In this document: positions 43,281-61,145 of the stretch, in pieces
How positions within the stretch are numbered: the stretch's first letter is position 1
Layout: each line of letters begins with the position of its first letter
From: a virus
Taxonomy: Duplodnaviria > Heunggongvirae > Uroviricota > Caudoviricetes
Reading direction: 5' to 3' (one strand)
Virus record (IMG/VR): IMGVR_UViG_3300037504_000201
Span: 1 to 64,000 of that record
DNA: 64,000 bases
Made by a program: the position numbers and the translations under genes
Notes under the pieces: generated by a model
Database searches by the model: none
Seen by the model: the letters and a program-made list of their open reading frames with translations, nothing else
What the model was told of the DNA's origin: nothing

Positions 43281-45161
43281 TTACAAAGTTGATAACTCGT
43301 ACTCGTACAGCTCCAAGATCGCCTTGGCTTCGCTGATCTCATCCCGCCCCTTCAGGCCAGTCTCTAGCCTCTCTTCCAGAGTGGGTTCGACGTAGCGCAA
43401 GCCGGCAGCGTCGTAAGCTGCTTTTACGTAATCAAGGGGCCGGTCCCGAAGCGCGTACTGAATCGGGATCGGCGTAAACGTATCGTCGGCAACCGGGAAT
43501 GATAATATCTCCCGGTCCGGCGTTCGTTTTACCAGGTGGGGCACGGAGCCGGGGCTGTAGTAGAGTGCCTTTTGCGCCAGCAAACCATCTATCATATCCC
43601 AATAATCACTAGACACATCAATCCAGTCTTGCACCCACAAGCCAACCTCGTCTTGCCAGGCGTCGTCACGGTGCCCCAGGGTAGCAACGCCTAGCTTGGG
43701 GTCCTTGCCGTGATGGAACAATGCCGGCGCCTTGCTGTAGGCGTCAAGGTAAAACTCGGTCTTGGGGGTAAAATAATCGCCGTGCAAGTCTCTGTGGTCT
43801 GGGTCGCCCCATAGTGCCATGTAGCCGCCGATGACGGCGCCCTTGCGGTCGCCTCCAGGCAGCGCCACGGCTTTAAGGTAGGGGAATGAAAATGCCTTTT
43901 GCATCGTCATCGCCGAACCGGCTTGTATCTGTGGCTGGCCCTCGCTGTAGCGCGCCCAGGCCAGCACCGCGTCCAGCTTGGCGATAATCTCTTCGAGCGA
44001 TGATTGGGCCATTTTGCGCAAGGACACAAGGTCTTCCACCTTGCTTTGAGCGATGCGCTTGCCGGCCTTGGTGGCGCCGGTGTCGATGGGGACGATCTCG
44101 TTCGCCCACATCAGAGCCAGTTGCATCACGACCGGCTCTGTCGGCAAGTCTGGCGCGTCCGGCATCGGCGCGCCGCTTGGCACATAAGCCAGCGTCAGAT
44201 GGGGCGTGTAACCGTGCTCCGAGACGTTCAGTGTGCTGAACGCCCGCCGCAGACCCTCAATGTCGGGGCTGTCAGCGTTGACGTAGACAGGGTCGCCCGC
44301 CTCGTCGGTGCCACGGAACCGACCAATGCCGTTTAGCATCACCGGCACCGCCGTCATTAGCCCACGCGCCGTGTCGCGCACGGCGGACAACACGCGCGCC
44401 CGGTCCAGCTCGTCCACCTCGCCCAGGTAGGCGATGGTGACGTGTAGCGTCTCTGACGGTAACCCGCCGGGGATCACCAGCATCTCGGCCACTGTCGGGT
44501 CGGGGATCAACACCACCGCCGCGCCGTCCGAGCCGGGTGTCTCTTTCTCCGGTTCATATTGCTTGGTGACGGGGATAGGTTCGCCGAATGAAAATCCGTC
44601 TTGCCCCTCTGCGTAGGGATAACGCAGCAACTGCCCGTCCTCCATCCGACGCGCAATGACGGCGTCGTTGAGGATATCGTGAATCCAAATGTCGACGGGC
44701 GACGGGACGAGAATCCCTTCATCGTCGTAGCGACGGGGCCTAAACTCAGCCTCCCAGGCCGACCTCACCTTCTCTTCGTACTCGGACAGACTGTATGATT
44801 TGGCCTCGTCTTCGTCCATCGCTTGCGGTTCACCGAATACCGGCTCGCCTTCGTCGTCCTCTGACCACGGGTAGCTCATTAGCCCGTCGTCGTCCTTGGC
44901 GATCACAGCATCGTCGGTCACCTCAAGCACAGACCCGCCGTGCTCCTTCTCCCACGCGGCGCGGACGTCGGACTTGGAGCAGGCTTTGGCCTCGGCGCGA
45001 GGGGACGATTGAATCTTGTCTTCTAGTTTCTCAATCTCTTCCAGCTTCTTCTCATACGACGCCTTGAGCTTGTCCGCATCTTCCGGCGGCACGTCTTGCA
45101 TTGTGTGGAATAGAATGTAAGCGTCGATTACTAGCTGGTCCAGCTTTTCTTGATCGTTCAT
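43281..45161 (-). CDS. prohead protease (S78/U35, C-terminal) fused to a 2H phosphoesterase domain (LigT/Acb1-like fold)
   Basis: Two H-x-T motifs, LHVTIAYLG and PHLTLAYVP, about 75 aa apart. C-terminal IGGYMALWGDPDHRDLHGDYF...LFHHG matches the prohead protease. N-terminal coiled coil and two internal repeats. Confidence 0.5.
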   Translation of the reverse strand: MNDQEKLDQLVIDAYILFHTMQDVPPEDADKLKASYEKKLEEIEKLEDKIQSSPRAEAKACSKSDVRAAWEKEHGGSVLEVTDDAVIAKDDDGLMSYPWSEDDEGEPVFGEPQAMDEDEAKSYSLSEYEEKVRSAWEAEFRPRRYDDEGILVPSPVDIWIHDILNDAVIARRMEDGQLLRYPYAEGQDGFSFGEPIPVTKQYEPEKETPGSDGAAVVLIPDPTVAEMLVIPGGLPSETLHVTIAYLGEVDELDRARVLSAVRDTARGLMTAVPVMLNGIGRFRGTDEAGDPVYVNADSPDIEGLRRAFSTLNVSEHGYTPHLTLAYVPSGAPMPDAPDLPTEPVVMQLALMWANEIVPIDTGATKAGKRIAQSKVEDLVSLRKMAQSSLEEIIAKLDAVLAWARYSEGQPQIQAGSAMTMQKAFSFPYLKAVALPGGDRKGAVIGGYMALWGDPDHRDLHGDYFTPKTEFYLDAYSKAPALFHHGKDPKLGVATLGHRDDAWQDEVGLWVQDWIDVSSDYWDMIDGLLAQKALYYSPGSVPHLVKRTPDREILSFPVADDTFTPIPIQYALRDRPLDYVKAAYDAAGLRYVEPTLEERLETGLKGRDEISEAKAILELYEYELSTL

Positions 45162-46135
45162 AGTCCTAATTCCTCCGCCGCCTTTGCCATCCCGCGCATT
45201 TGAATGTCCTCCATGTCCTCATGCTTCATGCTCAAATCGCGCAACGTGTATTGGAACATCGCGCGGCGACGAATAGCATCTGCTTTTCTTCGACTTCGGC
45301 TGCTATAGCTGTAGCCGCTGATTACCTCGTCCAAATCGGCAATCTTGGACTCTATTCTGTCAACGTTCTGACGTAGTTTTTTTTGGGTGCTCTTGATCCG
45401 CGTGGTCCTCACCGCCTGTTTGACTTGCTTGATCTGGCTTGCATTGAGCTTGGTGCCGTCAGCGACGTGAAAATATTGACTGGCGATGTCGCGCGCCACA
45501 TCCGCCGCCTCGGGTGCAACAACCCAGCGTTTCTTACTTGGATTCCACTGGCGCATGCTGTACGCGATGTTGTTTTTTAAATCATCAACAAAGTCTCGAT
45601 TGTACGGCGTCTCAAAAGTTGTGCCTCCGCCCTTGTTTTTACCGATCACGGCCACGTCGCGCTCGGGATTCTTGGCGATTTGCTGGCGCAAGTCAGCGGT
45701 CGCGCCGGTGCGCAGTGACATAGCCGAAGTCCTTGGCGCGCTACCGCCGCGCTTCCCTTTGCGCCCGGCGTGCCCCCAGTTGCCGCTACCTGGGCCGCCC
45801 TTGGCCTCTTCCCGCTTGATAATCTTCTCACTGTCGGGGTCATAGCGATATGTATCGCCGTCCAGCATCTCGGCGATGCGCCGCCCGATGACGCGCCAGT
45901 CAGATTCCGAATAGTTGCCGGCCTCACGTTGCCCATCGTGGTTAAAGTACTGCATCGCCGCCAGCGCCCGGTCCCCGTCGCACGGGTACTTCCAGTTGAC
46001 GGGGTCGGCAAATTTACTCTCCGGCACGTCTTCATACTCTGCGGGTTTGGTGAGATGCCCGCCTTCGACGGGCGATATCCCGTATTTTTTAGCGCGCTTG
46101 GCTTGCGCTTCTTTTAGCTTCTCACGATCTGCCAT
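45158..46135 (-). CDS. head-module protein carrying Gly-rich motif GGPGSGNWGHAGRKGKRGGS
   Basis: RBS ACGGAGG. The motif is shared with the portal's C-terminal region. Confidence 0.5.
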   Translation of the reverse strand: MADREKLKEAQAKRAKKYGISPVEGGHLTKPAEYEDVPESKFADPVNWKYPCDGDRALAAMQYFNHDGQREAGNYSESDWRVIGRRIAEMLDGDTYRYDPDSEKIIKREEAKGGPGSGNWGHAGRKGKRGGSAPRTSAMSLRTGATADLRQQIAKNPERDVAVIGKNKGGGTTFETPYNRDFVDDLKNNIAYSMRQWNPSKKRWVVAPEAADVARDIASQYFHVADGTKLNASQIKQVKQAVRTTRIKSTQKKLRQNVDRIESKIADLDEVISGYSYSSRSRRKADAIRRRAMFQYTLRDLSMKHEDMEDIQMRGMAKAAEELGL

Positions 46136-49770: not shown

Positions 49771-49952
49771 TACTCTTCGCCTTCCTCCGCCTCGACCACG
49801 TAATACCACGGCGTCTGCTTGGCAATTTCGTGCGGCGTGTCGCTGGGGACGATGACGGAGGCGATAACGCCCTCTTCTAGCTCTTTACCTTGAACCTCGT
49901 AAAGCTTGCGGTCGCCGTGTTTGTCCGGGTCATAGTCGATGTATCTGGGCAT
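49770..49952 (-). CDS. small acidic protein
   Basis: TAATG coupling to the portal stop, with RBS GGAGG. Confidence 0.4.
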   Translation of the reverse strand: MPRYIDYDPDKHGDRKLYEVQGKELEEGVIASVIVPSDTPHEIAKQTPWYYVVEAEEGEE

Positions 49953-52396
49953 TAGTCACTGCCTCCAAATATTTCATCTAGGGAATCGACTTCTAAATAT
50001 TCGGCAAGAGCTTGTCGCTGTTCATTCGAACCATAATGATATACCCTAAAGGTATCGGCCTTAAATTCGAGATCTTTGGTTAGTGAGTACTCACGAAGGC
50101 CATACCTAGCAAGGTCGCCCTTCGTCACTCTATCCACAAACCCATACCTATAAGCATCCTTCATGTCCTTAAAACCATTAACCAATAAATCGTTCGCCCT
50201 TTGACCACGCTTACTCTCCAAGAACGCAGAGCGCATGGTTACATGGTGCCCAAGCTCGTGAGAGAAGATATACCTTGAAGACGATATAAAATCAGGATTT
50301 ATATGTATTGATTGCTCTTGCGGATCGTACACTCCTGCAGCATCATAATCGCCTACGTGGGAACGCCAAGGATTATCTGGCGAAAGTTGCGCGCGGATCT
50401 TTGTTGGCTCCGTCGTAATCCGCTTCAGCCCTTCCAAGTGTCGCGGCTGAATCTCATCTCGCACCATCATATCAACAACGACTTTGCGCGTCTTTTCATC
50501 AAGGCCCTCTACCAACTTGCGCCCAGGCCCAACCTCAAAGTATCGCGGATTGACACGTCCGCTTCCACGCATTGAACCCGGAGCACTCCCGCCGCGTTTC
50601 CCAGGGCGCCCAGCATGCCCCCAGTTGCCACTACCTGGGCCGCCTTTCACGTTCTCATCCCACGTCGGCGCGTTCATCAACTGCGCCCACTCGTCACTCA
50701 CCCGCGCAGCGCCCGCCACGGCCCGCTCGGCGTCGGTCTGCGTGATGGTCAACGTATCGTTGGCGAATAACGTGTCTCGGTCGGGCACAGGCATAAACTC
50801 GACGACCTCCTCCGGCTCCGACTCATTGTAGCGCGCCAAGAGCAGCGCCTCGGCGGTGGCGTCCTTGACCTCTGTGATAGGCAGATCGACCGGCGTCGCC
50901 GCAATCTCACGCAGGCCGGCAAACACCTCAAGCACGCCTTGGTCGCTCACGCCATCGGGTAGCGCAGTCAGCGCCGCTTCGGTCAGTGATTTTAGCCAGG
51001 CGGGGATGTCGTGGCACACGAACGGCGCCGACGACGGGTGCCGGCCAGACTGAGCGAAGCGCAACGCCTTGCGCTCCCACTTGCCCAGCTCGTCAAGCGC
51101 CTTGTTCTCTTCTTCTGCGGGCGGCTCTTCTTGCGTCTGTTCCTCGCCTTGCTGCCCCATCGATGCCAGCTCCGGTATCAATGGGATAAAGCGGGTGGGC
51201 AACGTGTCGCAGTACTCTGCCACCGGGCCGGCCTCGATAGGATCCAGGCCCTGCTTGGCCCGCGCCTCGTTGACCGTCATGTCCGGCGCGTATGTCGTAT
51301 AATCTTGACGGTCCTCATCACGTCGGGCGGGGCGAAAGTCCTCGTACTGACAAATGAATTGCTCGCCGTAGGTGGGCCGAATGAACTGCGTGGTGATGTC
51401 CCCGGCTAGAAGCTGCGCAATTGGGTAAACGTGCCACTCGGTCACCATGTCAAGGGACGCATACATCGAGGCGTAGGTGGTGTTCTGCGCCCCCAGCGCC
51501 TCCGACCAGCCCAGCACCTCCATAAACTCGCGGCGGTTGGAATCGCTCAACTGGACGATAGCCAGGTCGTCCAGGTTCATCTCCATCGCCTTGACGTCCA
51601 TATCGCCCGCGCGCATCACCAGCGCCGCCCGGTCCACCACCCGCAGCTCTTTGATAATCTCGTCGCGGATAGCAAAAAACTGCGAGCGCGTGACCGGCTT
51701 TTTGATGTTAAAGATGGTGGTGGGGGAGGCGTTCCTTGGCCCGAAAAAGTTCTCACGGAATCTCCGCTGGCCTAACTCAGTCTTGATGGTGCTCTCAAGC
51801 GCGCTTACCCCGCTCATCCCGTCCAATGGGTCGAGGATGTTGGGCATGCGACACCAAATGACTTGCGTGTGAGGAATCAGATAGGGCCGCCCGTCGCGCC
51901 CAGAGAACTCGTAGCCCAACACCGGCGTCTTGGTGTCGGGGCCTGGGATAGGCTGCACCGACATCGGCGGCAAGGGCCACAATGACTCCGGTTCAAGATT
52001 ATCATCCAGCCCTACAAAGATGAACGCGCTACCGCGAATCGGCAGACATAGCCCAATGAACCAGCGGAAGAACACGCCCGACATGAATGAGTTGGGGTCG
52101 TGCAAGAGAAGCTCGAACGGGTGATTCTCGACCGGCGTCGGCTTGTCCTCGGGCTTGGCACGCTCATAGATGCCGGGGATATAGCTGGAGAGAATCTTGG
52201 CGATGCCGTTGGCTGCTGTGTAGACGGGCGGGAGCTTGAGCGCCTTGCGCTGCAAGCTCTCGTGACTTGCGCCGGGCGCGGCACGTGATATGCCGCCGCC
52301 CATCGAGATAGGCAGATCGGGCACGGCGGGGTAAGGCTCACGTTCCCCAGGCCGTTCAATGCTCAGCTTTCCGACCCCCGGAATTCTGAATCTCAT
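49952..52396 (-). CDS. portal protein with C-terminal extension containing Gly-rich motif and HExxH zincin-like domain
   Basis: N-terminal 480 aa is portal-like. Then GGPGSGNWGHAGRPGKRGGS. Then a 230-aa domain with IFSHELGHHV. Confidence 0.65.
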   Translation of the reverse strand: MRFRIPGVGKLSIERPGEREPYPAVPDLPISMGGGISRAAPGASHESLQRKALKLPPVYTAANGIAKILSSYIPGIYERAKPEDKPTPVENHPFELLLHDPNSFMSGVFFRWFIGLCLPIRGSAFIFVGLDDNLEPESLWPLPPMSVQPIPGPDTKTPVLGYEFSGRDGRPYLIPHTQVIWCRMPNILDPLDGMSGVSALESTIKTELGQRRFRENFFGPRNASPTTIFNIKKPVTRSQFFAIRDEIIKELRVVDRAALVMRAGDMDVKAMEMNLDDLAIVQLSDSNRREFMEVLGWSEALGAQNTTYASMYASLDMVTEWHVYPIAQLLAGDITTQFIRPTYGEQFICQYEDFRPARRDEDRQDYTTYAPDMTVNEARAKQGLDPIEAGPVAEYCDTLPTRFIPLIPELASMGQQGEEQTQEEPPAEEENKALDELGKWERKALRFAQSGRHPSSAPFVCHDIPAWLKSLTEAALTALPDGVSDQGVLEVFAGLREIAATPVDLPITEVKDATAEALLLARYNESEPEEVVEFMPVPDRDTLFANDTLTITQTDAERAVAGAARVSDEWAQLMNAPTWDENVKGGPGSGNWGHAGRPGKRGGSAPGSMRGSGRVNPRYFEVGPGRKLVEGLDEKTRKVVVDMMVRDEIQPRHLEGLKRITTEPTKIRAQLSPDNPWRSHVGDYDAAGVYDPQEQSIHINPDFISSSRYIFSHELGHHVTMRSAFLESKRGQRANDLLVNGFKDMKDAYRYGFVDRVTKGDLARYGLREYSLTKDLEFKADTFRVYHYGSNEQRQALAEYLEVDSLDEIFGGSD

Positions 52397-55888: not shown

Positions 55889-55918
55889 TAAAAAAAGCCC
55901 CGCCGGGGGTGGCGGGGT
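55889..55918 (-). terminator. rho-independent terminator
   Basis: On the minus RNA: CCCCGCC-ACCCCC-GGCGGGGC, then UUUUUUUAUU. Confidence 0.7.
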
Positions 55919-55937: not shown

Positions 55938-56408
55938 CTATTTGTCGATAAGCATCTCTTCCAGTTCGTCCCACATCTCGGACGCCAGTTCATCCCGGTA
56001 AAACCAGGCGCTTTCTTCCTCGATCTGCTCGTCCGTCAGCGCTGGGACGCGGATGATAACGCCGTTCGATTGGTAGCGGTTGCCGATCTGGGCGCTCGAC
56101 AGCACGCGATAGGCGCCGTCGTCGAACAGCTCGGCGGCGTAGTACTCGCCATTCGCCGCTGCTTGCGTGCTCTTGACGATAGTCGGCACAAAGTCAATGC
56201 TATCGATGAATGCCCTCAGCGCCCACTTGAGCGCGGCAAAGCGCTGTCCGCGAAGGTGGGATGCGTAGTGTCTCAGCGCGTCGTCGATGATTGCCACGCG
56301 GTCGCCGTGCTGCCCGGCATCGCGGTGGGTCAGCACGGCAAGCTCGTCGAATAAGTCAGCGCGGTTGTCTGCCGCGCTGTAAACGTTGGTGTATCCGTTG
56401 CTGGACAT
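55938..56408 (-). CDS. hypothetical protein
   Basis: TAATG coupling. Confidence 0.45.
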   Translation of the reverse strand: MSSNGYTNVYSAADNRADLFDELAVLTHRDAGQHGDRVAIIDDALRHYASHLRGQRFAALKWALRAFIDSIDFVPTIVKSTQAAANGEYYAAELFDDGAYRVLSSAQIGNRYQSNGVIIRVPALTDEQIEEESAWFYRDELASEMWDELEEMLIDK

Positions 56409-56695
56409 TAGAGCCACTTCTTCGTTGAGATGGCACCATCTGCGCTCTCGACAACGCTGACGCGGCGATTCACATCGGCCATGTATGGTCGACCGTGCTG
56501 GTCAACGTGGACCCAGCCGCGCCGCTTGACTTCAATGCCGTTTTTGTGCGCCCAATCGCGCATCCGGCGCTTGAAGCTCTCGACATCGGATTGAGTCGGA
56601 GCGATGACCTTTTCAAGGTTGACGCCACGGTCAACTTGCACGCCACTCAAGCGCGCATGGTATAAGCACTTTTGATTTTGATTACAAACACACAT
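56408..56695 (-). CDS. hypothetical Cys-rich protein
   Basis: RBS AAAAAGGAGATTGAG. N-terminus MCVCNQNQKC. Confidence 0.45.
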   Translation of the reverse strand: MCVCNQNQKCLYHARLSGVQVDRGVNLEKVIAPTQSDVESFKRRMRDWAHKNGIEVKRRGWVHVDQHGRPYMADVNRRVSVVESADGAISTKKWL

Positions 56696-56807
56696 CTCAA
56701 TCTCCTTTTTCATTCTAGCGATCCCCCATTACCGCATCGTTTTCAGCGGCACCCGCACGGCGCGGGCTGTAGGGCCAACCCTGCTTGTTAGGCGGGGGTT
56801 TTAGATA
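56696..56807 (-). ncRNA. conserved structured RNA leader, copy A
   Basis: 90-nt repeat with multi-hairpin potential. Compensatory changes relative to copy B. Confidence 0.4.
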
Positions 56808-57017
56808 TTAGTCCAAGTGAGTCGCTTCATTCGCCCATGTGGCGACGTGGGCCGAGTACACCTGCCCGCATCGCGTGCAACGCGCGGCATAGCTACGCTG
56901 CTGCGGGACGAATCCAGCCTTGCGAAAGCCGCGTCCGTGCTCCCAGTACCCGTCTTCGACGGGCGCGCCACATTCGCATTTGCCATTTACCAACTCATCG
57001 GTTGATTTGACCTTCAT
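56808..57017 (-). CDS. zinc-ribbon protein (CxC...CxxC)
   Basis: RBS AAAAGGAGAGATTGAA. GKCECG and CTRCG motifs. Confidence 0.45.
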   Translation of the reverse strand: MKVKSTDELVNGKCECGAPVEDGYWEHGRGFRKAGFVPQQRSYAARCTRCGQVYSAHVATWANEATHLD

Positions 57018-57136
57018 TTCAATCTCTCCTTTTCTCATCAAGGCGATCCCCCATTACCGCATCGACTTTTCAGCGGCACCCGCACGGCGCGGGCTGTGGG
57101 GCCAACCCCGCTGGCTAGGCGGGGGTTTTGGAATTT
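57018..57136 (-). ncRNA. conserved structured RNA leader, copy B
   Basis: Near-identical to copy A, with a covarying GGGG-UUGG-CCCC versus AGGG-UUGG-CCCU stem. Confidence 0.4.
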
Positions 57137-57607
57137 CTAGGCGGGCCAATCCACAACCCACCAAGAGCCATCAATGAAGTATGCGCTAAACCAGCGGTCG
57201 CGGTCTCCGCCATCCTCGACATCGCGGGTCATATCGAGGCACTCGTGCACCCAGTAGGCATTGGGCACATCGTCCTCGCTCGCCAGCTCGCGCCAGGCTT
57301 GGACGTCTTGGGCGAAGCCGAGAGGAACATAGACTCGGCTCAGTGAGTGGGCAATTAAGTCACCCTGGCGTTGACCGCACCCAGCTATGACGGGCTCATA
57401 CTGCTCACCCGCAACAAGACGGCCTATCTCGATATTCACCATCTTGAAGCCGTCGTTTTCCCCGACGGCCAGAGCGATGGTGTGGGGTGCGCCCTTACTC
57501 AGCGACGCGAAGGAGATCATCTCCTCGCCATCATTGAATAGCATGTCCGCACAAACCCACCGCCACGGCAAATAACCTAATCTCATTGATAACTTTTCCA
57601 CGTTCAT
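57137..57607 (-). CDS. hypothetical protein
   Basis: RBS AAAGGAAG, 4 nt before the ATG. Confidence 0.45.
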   Translation of the reverse strand: MNVEKLSMRLGYLPWRWVCADMLFNDGEEMISFASLSKGAPHTIALAVGENDGFKMVNIEIGRLVAGEQYEPVIAGCGQRQGDLIAHSLSRVYVPLGFAQDVQAWRELASEDDVPNAYWVHECLDMTRDVEDGGDRDRWFSAYFIDGSWWVVDWPA

Positions 57608-57719
57608 CTTACTTCCTTTCTGCCGGTTTCTCGCGCACTCCGGCAAACGCTATCGGCCTTGCCACATCAGCTCCGGGCGGCCATCCCCGACGGACGCGGG
57701 CGCGTTGCCCGCGTTTCGG

Positions 57720-57947
57720 CTAGCGCTTTTTCAATTCGCGCCAAACGTCATCCTCAATCTTGGCATGAATGAAGCGCTTTTCGCCCTCATCGTACTCAAT
57801 CCCCTGCTCGCGACACCTCTTTTCCCAGCTATTCAAAACACCTTCGACGTATAGGCCAATGGACCAATCGAGAAATTCAGCAATGCTGAATGGGCTATCT
57901 TCCATCGCGCTATCGGCCACGCTGGCTAGCTTGTCAATGCTAGTCAT
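57720..57947 (-). CDS. hypothetical protein
   Basis: Internal Met overlapping the upstream stop. Confidence 0.35.
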   Translation of the reverse strand: MTSIDKLASVADSAMEDSPFSIAEFLDWSIGLYVEGVLNSWEKRCREQGIEYDEGEKRFIHAKIEDDVWRELKKR

Positions 57948-58875: not shown

Positions 58876-58904
58876 AGTATACCACACATTCTAGAATATG
58901 TCAA
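58876..58904 (-). promoter_or_regulatory. sigma70-type promoter class A, copy 3
   Basis: TTGACA-TATTCTAGAATGTGTGG-TATACT. Same ATTCTAGAAT palindrome and upstream CAATTG as the copies at 2156 and 3025. Confidence 0.65.
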
Positions 58905-59056: not shown

Positions 59057-60664
59057 TTATACCCAACCCATAAGGACGGCGTTGTCGCCTTCGAGGGCGA
59101 AGGATAGCGCCAGGGCGTCGGCTTTATCTGGGGATCGTCCGAGGGAATCGCGCATCTTGTCTTTAGGCGTGATGCGTCGCACGCCACCTTTGTTCTCGTA
59201 CTGGATCGCCGTCAGCTCTTGCGCCAGTTGGTCGTCTGGCGGCAGCATCGCCGTAGGGTCGTCGTGAAGCCAGCGGCGCACCTGGTCGAATAGATAGGCG
59301 CGCAGGTCATAGTAGGCGGTGACGCCATCCTCGTTGGGTGGTGACTTCCAGCTTACCTTGACGCCCAGCACCTGCGTCTCGGCGAACGGCACGCGCTCGG
59401 AGCGGGCGAGGCCGGCAATCTCTTGTATCCTCTCAATCTCTTCGCGCATCCTTGGCGCCACACCGGCACCAACTCCCACGGCGTCCACGGCCACGGCGGC
59501 GGGGTGCACGTTGGCCAGGCGCATCGTCGCCTCTTTCGCCGTCTCGTTGGGGTCGATGCCGTTCCACAGCTCAAGCGGCGCCACCCACCCACCGTAGCGC
59601 TTGCACAGACAGTTAAAGTCGGCGCCAAACTCGGCGATGTCCAGCCCGACCAGCGGCGCGATGCCAGGCGGTTGGTCGCCCACCAGCTCTTGCCTCAGCT
59701 TCCATCGCCCCATCGCGCGCGTTACGTCGCTTTCGGGGATGAGCTGATTGAGCGACTGGCCGGGGAAGCGGGCCAGAACGATGTAGGAGAGTTGCGGGTC
59801 TTCGACTTTGCGCCACCCGGCGCCGACCTGGTCTGCTAAAAAGTCGGGCACCTTAAAATATTCAAGCTCGGCCTCGTCGAACTTTTCTCCGTCAACAACC
59901 GGGCGCGACCACTTTTCTATGCGCCGGATCGTTCGTCGTCTCGTCACGGCCCCGCCGGGGATCACTGTCTCGCCGGTGATGACGTTAGGATGGGAGAAGG
60001 CGTCGAGGGTGACGACGTGGGCGCCTTGGGTGATGAGCTTGTAGGCCGGTGAATTCTTGGACCTCGGGTTGAACATCACAAGCAGCCGGGCGAACCCGCC
60101 GCTCATACACGACTCAATGCCGCGATACACCTCTTCGGGCACCGCATCCCCTTCGTCAATGATAAAGAGAAGGAAGGGAGCGTGCTTGCCGGCAAACTTG
60201 GCTTCACGTTCTGCGCTGGATCCGCTCGTCGGGATCGCCACACCGTCAAACCACCAGTTAGGCCCGGCAGCGATGTGCATGGTGTGCACGTCGCAATCAT
60301 TGAACAGCTCCGGATGGTCCATAACGCGCTGGTCCACCTCGCCCCACAGCAGGCGCTGGAGGTTGTCAAGTGGCGGGGCAGCAGCGCTGACGATCTTGGA
60401 GTTGGTGAGGCAGCGGAAGAACCACACGCCCACGTCGGCGGCGATAAACGTCTTGCCGACGGCATTAGCCGACTTGACGACGGTGACGCGGTGGTCGACG
60501 ACGGACTGCAGTACCTCGGCTTGCCCGTCGGTGACGTGGTGGCCCAGTACGCGCCGGGAGAAGCCGATAGGGTCGAAGGCCCAGGCGGACCATTCGTTGG
60601 GGGAGAGGCGTTTTAGCCCGGCGACGGCCTCGCGCTGAAGAAGGTAGCGGTCATTCCTCGCCAT
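59057..60664 (-). CDS. terminase large subunit
   Basis: Walker A KSANAVGKT. About 535 aa with a nuclease-like C-terminus. Overlaps the small subunit gene. Confidence 0.75.
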   Translation of the reverse strand: MARNDRYLLQREAVAGLKRLSPNEWSAWAFDPIGFSRRVLGHHVTDGQAEVLQSVVDHRVTVVKSANAVGKTFIAADVGVWFFRCLTNSKIVSAAAPPLDNLQRLLWGEVDQRVMDHPELFNDCDVHTMHIAAGPNWWFDGVAIPTSGSSAEREAKFAGKHAPFLLFIIDEGDAVPEEVYRGIESCMSGGFARLLVMFNPRSKNSPAYKLITQGAHVVTLDAFSHPNVITGETVIPGGAVTRRRTIRRIEKWSRPVVDGEKFDEAELEYFKVPDFLADQVGAGWRKVEDPQLSYIVLARFPGQSLNQLIPESDVTRAMGRWKLRQELVGDQPPGIAPLVGLDIAEFGADFNCLCKRYGGWVAPLELWNGIDPNETAKEATMRLANVHPAAVAVDAVGVGAGVAPRMREEIERIQEIAGLARSERVPFAETQVLGVKVSWKSPPNEDGVTAYYDLRAYLFDQVRRWLHDDPTAMLPPDDQLAQELTAIQYENKGGVRRITPKDKMRDSLGRSPDKADALALSFALEGDNAVLMGWV

Positions 60665-61145
60665 CAATTCGCTGCTCGACCAGCGCGTCGATTAGCGCGT
60701 CCAGCTTCTCCGCGCGCTCGGTGTCGGTTAGGCCGGCGTGGACGGATTCAATGGGGCCGCCGTCCTTGCCGGTCAGCTCGGTGCGCGTCGGCGCGTCCAG
60801 TCCCATGAGGTCAGCCCGGCGCTTCATCAACTTGAGCACCCGGTCAATCGCGCTGTAATCGCCTTGCGCCGCCCGCGTCCAGATGCCAAGCAGCATCCGG
60901 TCGATGCGCTCAAGTTCTAGCGTGCGAACGGCGCCCGCATCGTCTGCGATTTGGTCACGCAACTTTTCAAGCTCGCGCTTGACGTCTTTGTGCGCGTAGC
61001 GTTCACCCCACCCACCGGGTAGATTGTCAATGCCAAACTCTCGCACCGCAGCGGCGGCGATGTCGCGATATGTGGCACCGGCACGGCGCATTTTTAGCAC
61101 GTATTCACGTCGTTCTGCCGTGTCTAACAAATCGCTTGTACCCAT
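60651..61145 (-). CDS. terminase small subunit (putative)
   Basis: N-terminal HTH (RRAGATYRDIAAAA). Position immediately upstream of the large subunit. Confidence 0.55.
   Translation of the reverse strand: MGTSDLLDTAERREYVLKMRRAGATYRDIAAAAVREFGIDNLPGGWGERYAHKDVKRELEKLRDQIADDAGAVRTLELERIDRMLLGIWTRAAQGDYSAIDRVLKLMKRRADLMGLDAPTRTELTGKDGGPIESVHAGLTDTERAEKLDALIDALVEQRIDGEE

What the first reader, a model, noticed from the sequence alone, without database searches (positions are those of the whole stretch)
56696..57136. Duplicated about 90-nt structured RNA leader with compensatory base changes
Two intergenic segments, 56709-56800 and 57045-57136, precede small Cys-rich or Zn-ribbon genes inside one - strand operon. 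They are about 90% identical. On the transcribed strand: AAAACCCCCGCC...CAGGGUUGGCCCUACAGCCCGCGCCGUGCGGGUGCCGCUGAAAA..GAUGCGGUAAUGGGGGAUCGC.

They can fold as a long-range CCCCCGCC/GGGGG pairing enclosing three hairpins: (A/G)GGG-UUGG-CCC(U/C), CCCGC-GCCGU-GCGGG and CCGC-...-GCGG. The two copies differ by a paired A to G and U to C change that keeps the first hairpin intact (AGGG...CCCU versus GGGG...CCCC). That is covariation and supports an RNA-level function.

It is a candidate cis-regulatory leader (a riboswitch- or thermometer-like element, or a protein-binding element) or an RNase processing site. Neither protein-coding nor promoter function explains the sequence.
Basis: seen in the sequence. 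Interest (0 to 1): 0.75.

Follow-up and report, generated by a model that had tools for sequence, protein, structure and literature searches.

The report
Duplicated structured spacer RNA beside hammerhead
A phage operon of small genes carries two near-identical 87-base spacers that could fold into a four-helix RNA and lie just downstream of a hammerhead ribozyme, so they are probably sites where the long mRNA is cut or protected, but no other genome has them and this is not proven.

Summary
The repeat is real. There are two copies, 57129..57043 and 56802..56718, both on the - strand. They differ by 4 substitutions and one 2-nt indel (about 95% identity). Each fills the gap between a stop codon and the next ribosome-binding site in one promoter-to-terminator operon of eight small orphan genes. 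This operon lies between the large terminase and the portal gene of an unclassified phage.

The support is thin. It is one covariation event (p about 0.01 if the fold is fixed in advance, about 0.1 over all possible helices). Folding energies do not differ from shuffles. Competing folds exist.

No Rfam family, tRNA, coding frame or promoter explains it. Every homolog search was negative.

Two new facts bear on the finding:
- A type II hammerhead ribozyme fills the next spacer upstream.
- The structured core is far better conserved than the adjoining Shine-Dalgarno stretch (p=0.003).

Best reading: a cis-acting mRNA processing or protection module, confidence about 0.4. A new self-cleaving ribozyme remains possible, at about 0.1.

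The parts
57043..57129 (-). Element copy 2, 87-nt core (AAAACCCCCGCC...GGGGGAUCGC). P1 is 57125-57121 with 57052-57048. Hairpin 1 is 57109-57098, hairpin 2 is 57093-57079, hairpin 3 is 57077-57056.
   Evidence: repeat families D3 and D9; 120 bits
56718..56802 (-). Element copy 1, 85-nt core. P1 is 56798-56794 with 56727-56723. Hairpin 1 is 56782-56771 (A-U closing pair), hairpin 2 is 56766-56752, hairpin 3 is 56750-56731.
   Evidence: 115 bits
57015..57042 (-). Less conserved 3' extension of copy 2. It holds an in-frame upstream AUG (57038), the SD AAAGGAGA, and the SD-backed AUG (57017) of the 69-aa Zn-ribbon-like gene.
   Evidence: the JGI gene call uses the upstream AUG
56693..56717 (-). 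Less conserved 3' extension of copy 1. It holds an in-frame upstream AUG (56713), the SD AAGGAGA, and the SD-backed AUG (56695) of the 95-aa gene with an Lsr2-like motif.
57651..57721 (-). Type II hammerhead ribozyme (Rfam RF02276) in the next spacer upstream. It starts at the stop codon of the preceding gene.
   Evidence: 41 bits, gathering score 37, E=6e-5 for the whole window
58876..58904 (-). Sigma-70-type promoter of the operon (TTGACA-17-TATACT, with TG before the second hexamer).
   Evidence: sequence
55898..55917 (-). Intrinsic terminator that ends the operon (CCCCGCC..GGCGGGG followed by a T-run).
57137..57607 (-). 156-aa orphan gene between the hammerhead and copy 2.
   Evidence: only a self hit among 5.8 billion proteins
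56808..57017 (-). 69-aa CxC...CxxC gene flanked by the two copies.
   Evidence: only a self hit
56408..56695 (-). 95-aa gene downstream of copy 1, with an Lsr2-like DNA-binding motif.
   Evidence: one full-length homolog, P0008, 47% identity

Best explanation
The two copies are a cis-acting intercistronic RNA domain within a polycistronic phage mRNA. I read them as an mRNA punctuation module.

Each copy would fold into a compact four-helix junction: a 5-bp closing helix CCCCC/GGGGG around three hairpins. It sits about 8 nt (copy 2) or 5 nt (copy 1) after the upstream stop codon, with its G-run about 30 nt before the SD-backed AUG. By my estimate of ribosome footprints, it could therefore stay folded while both neighbouring ORFs are translated.

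Inferred function: the fold marks a place where the operon transcript is cut, and/or where exonucleases stall. This would split the message into separately stable, separately translated units. That is the same job the hammerhead ribozyme is thought to do one spacer upstream.

Shown: the duplication, its position, the foldability, one compensatory change, the non-uniform conservation, and the hammerhead neighbour.

Inferred: that the RNA form is the functional one, that cleavage or protection occurs, and which nuclease (or the RNA itself) does the cutting.
For: - Position. Three consecutive spacers of one promoter-to-terminator operon hold, in order, the hammerhead, copy 2 and copy 1. All other gene junctions in the operon are tight or overlapping. 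The 64 kb window holds only one hammerhead, so its adjacency to the element is unlikely to be chance.
- Literature. Bacterial and phage self-cleaving ribozymes cluster near each other, and processing of polycistronic transcripts is the role proposed for them (PMC6765202).
- Conservation. The core has 4 differences in 85 aligned positions; the adjoining SD spacer has 7 in 25 (Fisher p=0.0026; alignment). High identity stops at the edges of the fold.
- Substitution pattern. All changes fit the fold: two fall in the J1/2 loop, one pair is compensatory, and the indel only reshapes the tip of hairpin 3. The competing fold (Ha plus X) gets a C.A mismatch and a G.U wobble in copy 1.
- Strand. The G.U pairs (columns 53:74 and 36:52) work only on the - strand, which is the transcribed one.
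- Parallel case. The one other contig with a homolog of the downstream gene (L033) also has an operon of small genes separated by long, very stable but unrelated structured spacers. One of these is a tRNA-like domain and another is a stem of about 21 bp (z=-5.6 and -3.95). This fits a generic processing or insulation role better than a gene-specific ligand sensor.
Against: - There are only two copies in one genome, and no homolog anywhere that could be searched. The structure therefore rests on a single covariation event (p between 0.01 and 0.1).
- Folding energy is not better than shuffled sequence, and the four-helix fold is a minority of the predicted ensemble.
- No feature identifies a nuclease. 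The consensus fold has no coaxial duplex of about 20 bp for RNase III, and there is no T-loop or CCA for RNase P.
- A plain hairpin would be enough as an exonuclease barrier, so the complexity of the fold is not explained.
- There are no expression data.
Confidence: 0.4

Rival explanations
1. Translational operator or conformational switch. The G-run of P1 (GGGGG) would act as a Shine-Dalgarno-like sequence for an in-frame upstream AUG. P1, or the alternative helix X, hides it. An alternative hairpin GCGGU/AUCGC displays it in a 10-nt loop. A protein (perhaps one of the small Zn-ribbon proteins), temperature or a ligand would shift the balance.
For: - In both copies GGGGG lies exactly 9 nt before an in-frame AUG.
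- The 7-8 codons from that AUG to the SD-backed AUG read MRKGEIEM in copy 2 and MKKEIEM in copy 1. The differences are synonymous or conservative, plus an indel totalling 3 nt.
- The JGI gene calls start at that upstream AUG.
- Mutually exclusive helices exist: Ha/X against P1/hairpin 1, and Hd against hairpin 3.
- The conserved AUCGC tail just 3' of P1 is explained by hairpin Hd.
Against: - A canonical, stronger SD (AAGGAG) lies 6-7 nt before the second AUG, outside the fold. It is the same type as used by the other genes here and throughout L033.
- Hiding GGGGG would therefore change expression little.
- Pairing of the canonical SD is predicted in copy 2 only.
- No riboswitch or thermometer family matches.
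- In GC-rich RNA with C-runs and G-runs, alternative helices arise by chance.
Confidence: 0.2
2. No RNA-specific function. The repeat would be the scar or the substrate of a DNA-level cassette event: a small gene was inserted or duplicated along with its upstream spacer and first codons. The two copies are still young, or are kept alike by gene conversion. This would resemble the repeated regulatory cassettes that shuffle small ORFs in T4-type phages.
For: - The repeat unit is the whole spacer, and possibly also the first 7-8 codons.
- It flanks a single 69-aa orphan gene within a block of orphan genes.
- The element occurs nowhere else (all homolog searches negative).
- Structure A survives 4 random substitutions 21% of the time.
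- Thermodynamic support is weak.
Against: - Divergence is not uniform: the core is significantly better conserved than the adjoining stretch (p=0.0026).
- The compensatory pair is not expected under drift.
- Two direct repeats 327 bp apart at 95% identity should readily delete the gene between them unless selection keeps it.
- Unlike T4 PeSL cassettes, no promoter is present.
Confidence: 0.2
3. A new class of self-cleaving ribozyme. Together with the hammerhead it would cut the operon mRNA into single-gene pieces with 5'-OH and 2',3'-cyclic phosphate ends.
For: - It lies within 500-900 nt of a hammerhead, in the equivalent position in the same transcript. This is the genomic signature that led to twister-sister, pistol and hatchet (PMC6765202).
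- Its size (about 80 nt), multi-helix junction and invariant unpaired stretches (GCCUA, ACAG, AAU) are typical of small ribozymes.
- The phage encodes a 2H/LigT phosphoesterase domain, a fold that acts on cyclic-phosphate ends.
Against: - It matches no known ribozyme model, even at E<=10.
- Manual threading onto twister and HDV-like topologies failed (inference from the sequence).
- From my own recollection of the literature, most conserved motifs found next to ribozymes do not self-cleave.
- Nothing here can test catalysis.
Confidence: 0.1
4. The relevant strand is the + strand. The 5' end of the element, read in reverse complement, is a hairpin plus T-run (CCCCGC-loop-GCGGGG-TTTT). This would terminate antisense transcription entering the operon, or end a small antisense RNA.
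For: - The terminator scan flags copy 1 on the + strand.
- On the + strand the G21A change becomes a tolerated U.G wobble in that hairpin, whereas on the - strand it is a C.A mismatch.
- The conserved AAAA at the 5' edge of the element is the T-run on the + strand.
Against: - Only 4 T's follow the hairpin.
- The scan found 8 terminator-like sites against 5.1 expected in shuffles.
- No + strand promoter lies nearby in either copy.
- All genes from about 20 to 60 kb are on the - strand.
- This reading explains about 25 of the 87 conserved nucleotides and not the C32U change. The G.U pairs of hairpins 2 and 3 become A.C on the + strand.
Confidence: 0.05

Closest known systems
Motifs found next to hammerhead and twister ribozymes in phage-related DNA (twister-sister, pistol, hatchet and the RAGATH candidates)
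   Same: It is a conserved multi-helix RNA of about 80 nt, in an intergenic gap a few hundred nucleotides from a hammerhead, among phage genes (PMC6765202).
   Different: It matches none of their covariance models. It is known from two copies in one genome rather than a family. Catalysis is untested.
RNase III processing sites between the early genes of phage T7 (R0.3 to R1.3)
   Same: These are also repeated, mutually similar structured elements that fill successive intercistronic gaps of a phage operon and divide one transcript into units (established knowledge, recalled from memory).
   Different: T7 sites are single long irregular hairpins of about 20 bp. The consensus fold here is a four-helix junction with stems of 4-5 bp, so it is not an obvious RNase III substrate.
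Intercistronic stabiliser hairpins and REP elements (for example malE-malF, and the puf operon)
   Same: These are GC-rich structures between cistrons that can block 3' exonucleases and set differential stability within an operon (established knowledge, recalled from memory).
   Different: REP elements are simple palindromes present in many copies per genome. This element is a longer multi-branch fold with conserved unpaired nucleotides, present in two copies.
T4-type PeSL cassettes (early promoter plus stem-loop repeats that flank small ORFs)
   Same: Both are repeated non-coding modules that bracket small orphan genes in a plastic region of a phage genome.
   Different: No promoter lies inside this element. 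Its conservation pattern and compensatory change point to RNA rather than to recombination alone.
HK022 putL and putR antitermination RNAs
   Same: Both are two similar copies of a structured cis-acting RNA in phage transcripts, without Rfam-type breadth.
   Different: The put RNAs are two-hairpin elements placed just downstream of promoters and acting on terminators. Here both copies are in mid-operon, with no internal terminator to read through.

Membership tests
Known self-cleaving ribozyme classes in Rfam (hammerhead, twister, twister-sister, pistol, hatchet, HDV-like, hairpin) | Sequence-plus-structure match to the family covariance model at or near its gathering score | tested here: not met
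   No ribozyme family is reported for the element at the gathering threshold, at E<=10 on 1.2 kb, or at E<=10 on the 111-nt stretch alone. The same searches do find the neighbouring hammerhead.
Known self-cleaving ribozyme classes in Rfam (hammerhead, twister, twister-sister, pistol, hatchet, HDV-like, hairpin) | Site-specific self-cleavage giving 2',3'-cyclic phosphate and 5'-OH ends | not testable with these tools
   This needs an in vitro transcription and cleavage assay.
Riboswitches and RNA thermometers (Rfam families) | Match to a known aptamer or thermometer model, together with an expression platform that hides the SD or forms a terminator | tested here: not met
   There are no Rfam hits. 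The canonical SD is outside the fold and is predicted paired in copy 2 only. No - strand terminator follows the element.
tRNA or tRNA-like structure | Cloverleaf with a 7-nt T-loop (UUCRANY), a 7-bp acceptor stem, and detection by ARAGORN or the tRNA model | tested here: not met
   ARAGORN finds no tRNA in the window. There is no tRNA-clan Rfam hit. No T-arm motif occurs in or near the element. The loops are 4, 5 and 10-12 nt and P1 is 5 bp.
Intrinsic (rho-independent) terminator | GC-rich hairpin followed directly by a U-run on the transcribed strand | tested here: not met
   None of the hairpins is followed by a U-run on the - strand. Only a weak candidate exists on the + strand.
Protein-coding sequence | An open reading frame conserved between the copies | tested here: not met
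   A 2-nt indel lies within the core. The overlapping ORFs differ between copies in strand, frame and product.
Sigma-70-type promoter or PeSL cassette | -35 and -10 hexamers with 16-18 nt spacing inside the repeat | tested here: not met
   The promoter scan finds none in either copy. The operon promoter is at 58904-58876.
CRISPR repeat mimic (solitary repeat unit, RNA anti-CRISPR) | Full-length similarity to a CRISPR direct repeat, including the handle sequences | tested here: not met
   From memory, the alternative hairpin CCCCGC-loop-GCGGGG of copy 2 resembles the stem of type I-E repeats. However, no CRISPR-DR family is reported even at E<=10, copy 1 has a mismatch in that stem, and the flanks differ.
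Integron attC site | Imperfect palindrome bounded by the inverse core RYYYAAC and the core GTTRRRY | tested here: not met
   GCCTAAC occurs once, in copy 1 only; copy 2 reads GCCTAGC. No GTTRRRY partner sits at the other end (sequence).
T7-type RNase III processing site | About 20 bp of coaxial duplex, usually with an internal loop | tested here: inconclusive
   The consensus fold has only 4-5-bp helices. The single-sequence MFE folds draw a longer irregular hairpin over columns 10-52, but it is not supported by the substitutions.

The most novel reading that the evidence does not exclude
The element is a previously unknown class of small self-cleaving ribozyme. With the hammerhead it forms an array of three ribozymes that cuts a phage operon transcript into single-gene RNAs. 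These would carry 5'-OH and 2',3'-cyclic phosphate ends, which the phage's 2H/LigT-domain protein or a host RtcB ligase could then process.
Probability: 0.1. Interest if true: 0.85.

Novelty: new variant of a known kind. Interest (0 to 1): 0.45.

Why it matters
Why phages carry self-cleaving ribozymes is still unclear. An operon in which three successive spacers hold a hammerhead and two copies of an unrelated conserved fold is a compact system for asking what such RNA punctuation does to mRNA stability and translation.

If the element cleaves itself, it would be a new ribozyme class, found by the same proximity rule that yielded twister-sister, pistol and hatchet. If a host nuclease cuts it or is blocked by it, it would be a new, portable insulator or processing part. 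If neither happens, it documents how small orphan genes move around with their leaders.

The decisive experiment, in vitro transcription of a 150-nt template, is cheap.

Tried and rejected
Homolog searches, all negative:
- Exact or degenerate DNA patterns in IMG/VR. The 3' block gave 2 coding chance hits. P1 plus junction anchors gave 21 hits, all chance, including one coding family. A pattern with the hairpin 2 stem left free gave none, as did a pattern keeping only loops and junctions.
- The 5' half in JGI metagenome contigs gave 4 chance hits. The source contig itself is not in that collection.
- The 3' half in GTDB genomes gave 3 chance hits, all the same coding stretch in related Clostridia genomes.
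- blastn against GenBank phages found nothing.
- Flanking proteins as handles: the 156-aa, 159-aa and 69-aa genes have no relatives.
- The portal has relatives only at 43% identity or less. The one usable contig, L025, has no hammerhead above gathering score, and no sequence similar to the element was found in it by blastn or nhmmer.
- The 95-aa gene has one homolog, on L033, whose leader is unrelated.

Ideas considered and dropped:
- Twister, despite a 10-nt match CCGCCUAACA to the rice twister as I recall it. No P1 partner, no P2 and no pseudoknot partners could be found.
- An HDV-like nested pseudoknot. No P1/P3 arrangement survives in both copies.
- The hairpin ribozyme, tRNA-like structures, an attC site and a type I-E CRISPR repeat mimic (see the membership table).
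- The Chlorobi-1 match (11.5-13.8 bits against a gathering score of 50), which is a short loop coincidence.
- An 11-codon mini-ORF starting at UUG inside the element. It has no usable SD.

The look-up of encoding contigs could not retrieve the source contig.

Full report
**What is there**

On the - strand the window holds a self-contained operon.
- It starts at a sigma-70-type promoter at 58904-58876 (TTGACA-17-TATACT).
- It runs through eight small genes.
- It ends at an intrinsic terminator at 55917-55898.
- It lies between the large terminase (59057..60667, phrog_2) and the portal gene (49952..52396) of a phage with 57.7% G+C.
- The phage has no close relative in GenBank phages.

Most gene junctions in the operon are tight or overlapping. 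Three consecutive junctions are long.
- The first, 57721..57651, is a type II hammerhead ribozyme (Rfam RF02276, 41 bits against a gathering score of 37). It begins at the stop codon of the preceding gene.
- The second and third are the two copies of the reported element.

**The repeat**

The cores are 57129..57043 (87 nt) and 56802..56718 (85 nt). They differ at four positions and by a 2-nt indel, which is about 95% identity. Similarity continues at about 75% through the Shine-Dalgarno sequence to the start codon and then stops. The flanking ORFs are unrelated to each other.

A covariance model built from the pair and run without filters finds only these two copies in the window.

The element is not coding. 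The indel breaks every frame, and the overlapping ORFs are not shared between the copies. It contains no sigma-70-type promoter, and on the transcribed strand it has no hairpin followed by a U-run. ARAGORN finds no tRNA. Rfam gives nothing for the element at the gathering threshold, at E<=10 on 1.2 kb, or at E<=10 on the 111-nt stretch. The only exception is a 11.5-13.8-bit loop coincidence with Chlorobi-1.

**The structure**

- P1, columns 5-9 with 78-82
- hairpin 1, columns 21-24 with 29-32
- hairpin 2, columns 37-41 with 47-51
- hairpin 3, columns 53-57 with 70-74

This is also what RNAalifold returns for the pair. All 19 pairs form in both copies, and pair 21:32 is G-C in copy 2 and A-U in copy 1. 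The other two substitutions fall in the loop-like J1/2 segment. The indel only changes the tip of hairpin 3.

A competing fold uses helix Ha (6-11 with 19-24) and helix X (29-33 with 77-81). It is slightly more stable in copy 2. In copy 1 it acquires a C.A mismatch and a G.U wobble. The G.U pairs favour the - strand.

The limits of this evidence are real:
- MFE z-scores are -0.67 and -1.02.
- The four-helix fold is 1.6% and 33% of the predicted ensembles.
- Simulation gives p=0.011 for such a compensatory change within this fold, but p=0.105 within any possible helix of 4 bp or more. The fold survives four random substitutions 21% of the time.

Independent of any fold, the core is significantly better conserved than the adjoining SD stretch: 4 differences in 85 positions against 7 in 25, Fisher p=0.0026. 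Something constrains the core.

**The search for relatives**

All pattern scans returned chance matches or nothing. This covers four patterns in IMG/VR, one in JGI metagenome contigs and one in GTDB genomes. blastn against GenBank phages also found nothing.

The neighbouring genes are orphans. The portal has only distant relatives.

An exhaustive HMMER search with the 95-aa gene downstream of copy 1 found one full-length homolog, P0008, at 47% identity. Its contig, L033, shares no other gene with the window and has no match to the element.

L033 is still informative. It is also an operon of small genes separated by long, highly stable but unrelated spacers:
- a long stem carrying a tRNA-like domain with a perfect T-arm (z=-5.6, weak mascRNA hit)
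- a stem of about 21 bp (z=-3.95)
- a four-way junction closed by CUAUUCCCCAG/CUGGGGGAUAG

Structured punctuation between small phage genes thus recurs in a second, unrelated phage contig. The particular fold does not.

**How it most likely works**

The element begins 8 nt (copy 2) or 5 nt (copy 1) after the upstream stop codon. Its G-run lies about 30 nt before the SD-backed AUG. By my estimate of ribosome footprints (an inference from general knowledge), it sits just outside both the terminating and the initiating ribosome, so it can stay folded in a translated mRNA.

Three observations bear on function: the hammerhead lies in the equivalent position one gene upstream, self-cleaving ribozymes are known to cluster, and their proposed role is processing polycistronic transcripts (PMC6765202). 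Together with the position, these make a processing or protection module the best-supported reading. Under it, the transcript is cut at or next to the fold, or exonucleases stop there, which gives each small gene its own stability and translation context. I put this at about 0.4.

Which agent acts is not shown. Nothing in the fold identifies RNase III or RNase P, and self-cleavage (about 0.1) can only be tested at the bench.

**Rivals**

- A translational switch, about 0.2. GGGGG of P1 lies exactly 9 nt before an in-frame upstream AUG in both copies. The 7-8 codons that follow look conserved (MRKGEIEM and MKKEIEM). The JGI gene calls use that AUG. An alternative hairpin GCGGU/AUCGC would display the G-run in a loop. 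Against this, the canonical AAGGAG SD and the second AUG lie outside the fold. They match the SD type used throughout this operon and L033.
- A DNA-level cassette scar with no RNA function, about 0.2. This fits the uniqueness of the element and the orphan genes. It does not fit the non-uniform conservation or the compensatory pair.
- A + strand terminator, about 0.05. This explains only the 5' quarter of the element.

**Comparison with known systems, and verdict**

In function the element most resembles the T7 early RNase III sites, REP-type intercistronic stabilisers, and the ribozyme-associated motifs of phage DNA. It is a member of none of these, nor of any Rfam family (see the membership table).

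I rate it a new variant of a known kind: a structured intercistronic phage RNA. Interest is moderate at 0.45. The candidate is genuine and cheap to test, and its context is striking. However, it rests on two copies in one genome and a single covariation event.

Noticed in passing
window 57651-57721 (-): A type II hammerhead ribozyme (RF02276, 41 bits, gathering score 37) lies in the spacer one gene upstream of the element. Its core reads CUGAUGU, with U where A9 is usual. The stem I loop (AUGGCC) can pair with GGCCGA in the 3' tail, which is the tertiary contact I recall as typical of type II hammerheads.
   Followed up: partly
window 1693, 8276, 19432, 30359, 47159, 55763, 58947, 62580 (each 74-90 nt): There are eight copies of an AT-rich near-palindrome in a genome of 58% G+C. 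It has arms AATCAATTTGACATAATTGATT and a centre TTAAAACATATATTATATATTTTAA. At the copies examined it sits just upstream of a strong sigma-70-like promoter at an operon boundary. It looks like a regulator-binding or boundary element.
   Followed up: no
window 43281-45161 (-): The 626-aa protein just upstream of the major capsid gene carries a 2H/LigT phosphoesterase domain (PF13563, PF02834). This fold acts on 2',3'-cyclic phosphates, so it could relate to ribozyme products or to cyclic-nucleotide defence signals.
   Followed up: no
L033 283-420, 908-990 and 1768-1906 (+): A Logan contig (SRR12150544) carries the only homolog of the 95-aa gene. It has small genes separated by very stable spacers. 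One is a long stem with a tRNA-like domain: a perfect T-arm UCGGG-UUCGAGU-CCCGA, z=-5.6, and an 18-bit mascRNA hit. A second T-arm-like hairpin (CCCGG-UUCGACU-CCGGG) sits in a four-way junction. ARAGORN calls no tRNA. This may be tRNA-like punctuation of a phage operon.
   Followed up: partly
window 57036-57038 and 56711-56713 (-): Both genes downstream of the element have an in-frame AUG 7-8 codons before the SD-backed AUG, giving MRKGEIEM and MKKEIEM. The JGI gene calls use the upstream AUG, so the true start is uncertain.
   Followed up: partly
window 45735-45802 and 50580-50647: A 68-nt repeat at 84% identity lies inside two - strand ORFs: the 325-aa protein (45158..46135) and the C-terminal half of the portal protein. 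This suggests a shared protein segment.
   Followed up: no
window 46484, 55694, 62533 (33 nt each) and 2147, 3016 (36 nt each): These are repeated promoter cassettes. On the - strand they read TTGACAACCATACACGG.ATAGTGTATACT, and on the + strand TTGACATATTCTAGAATGTGTTATATA. Each has an internal palindrome that could be an operator.
   Followed up: no
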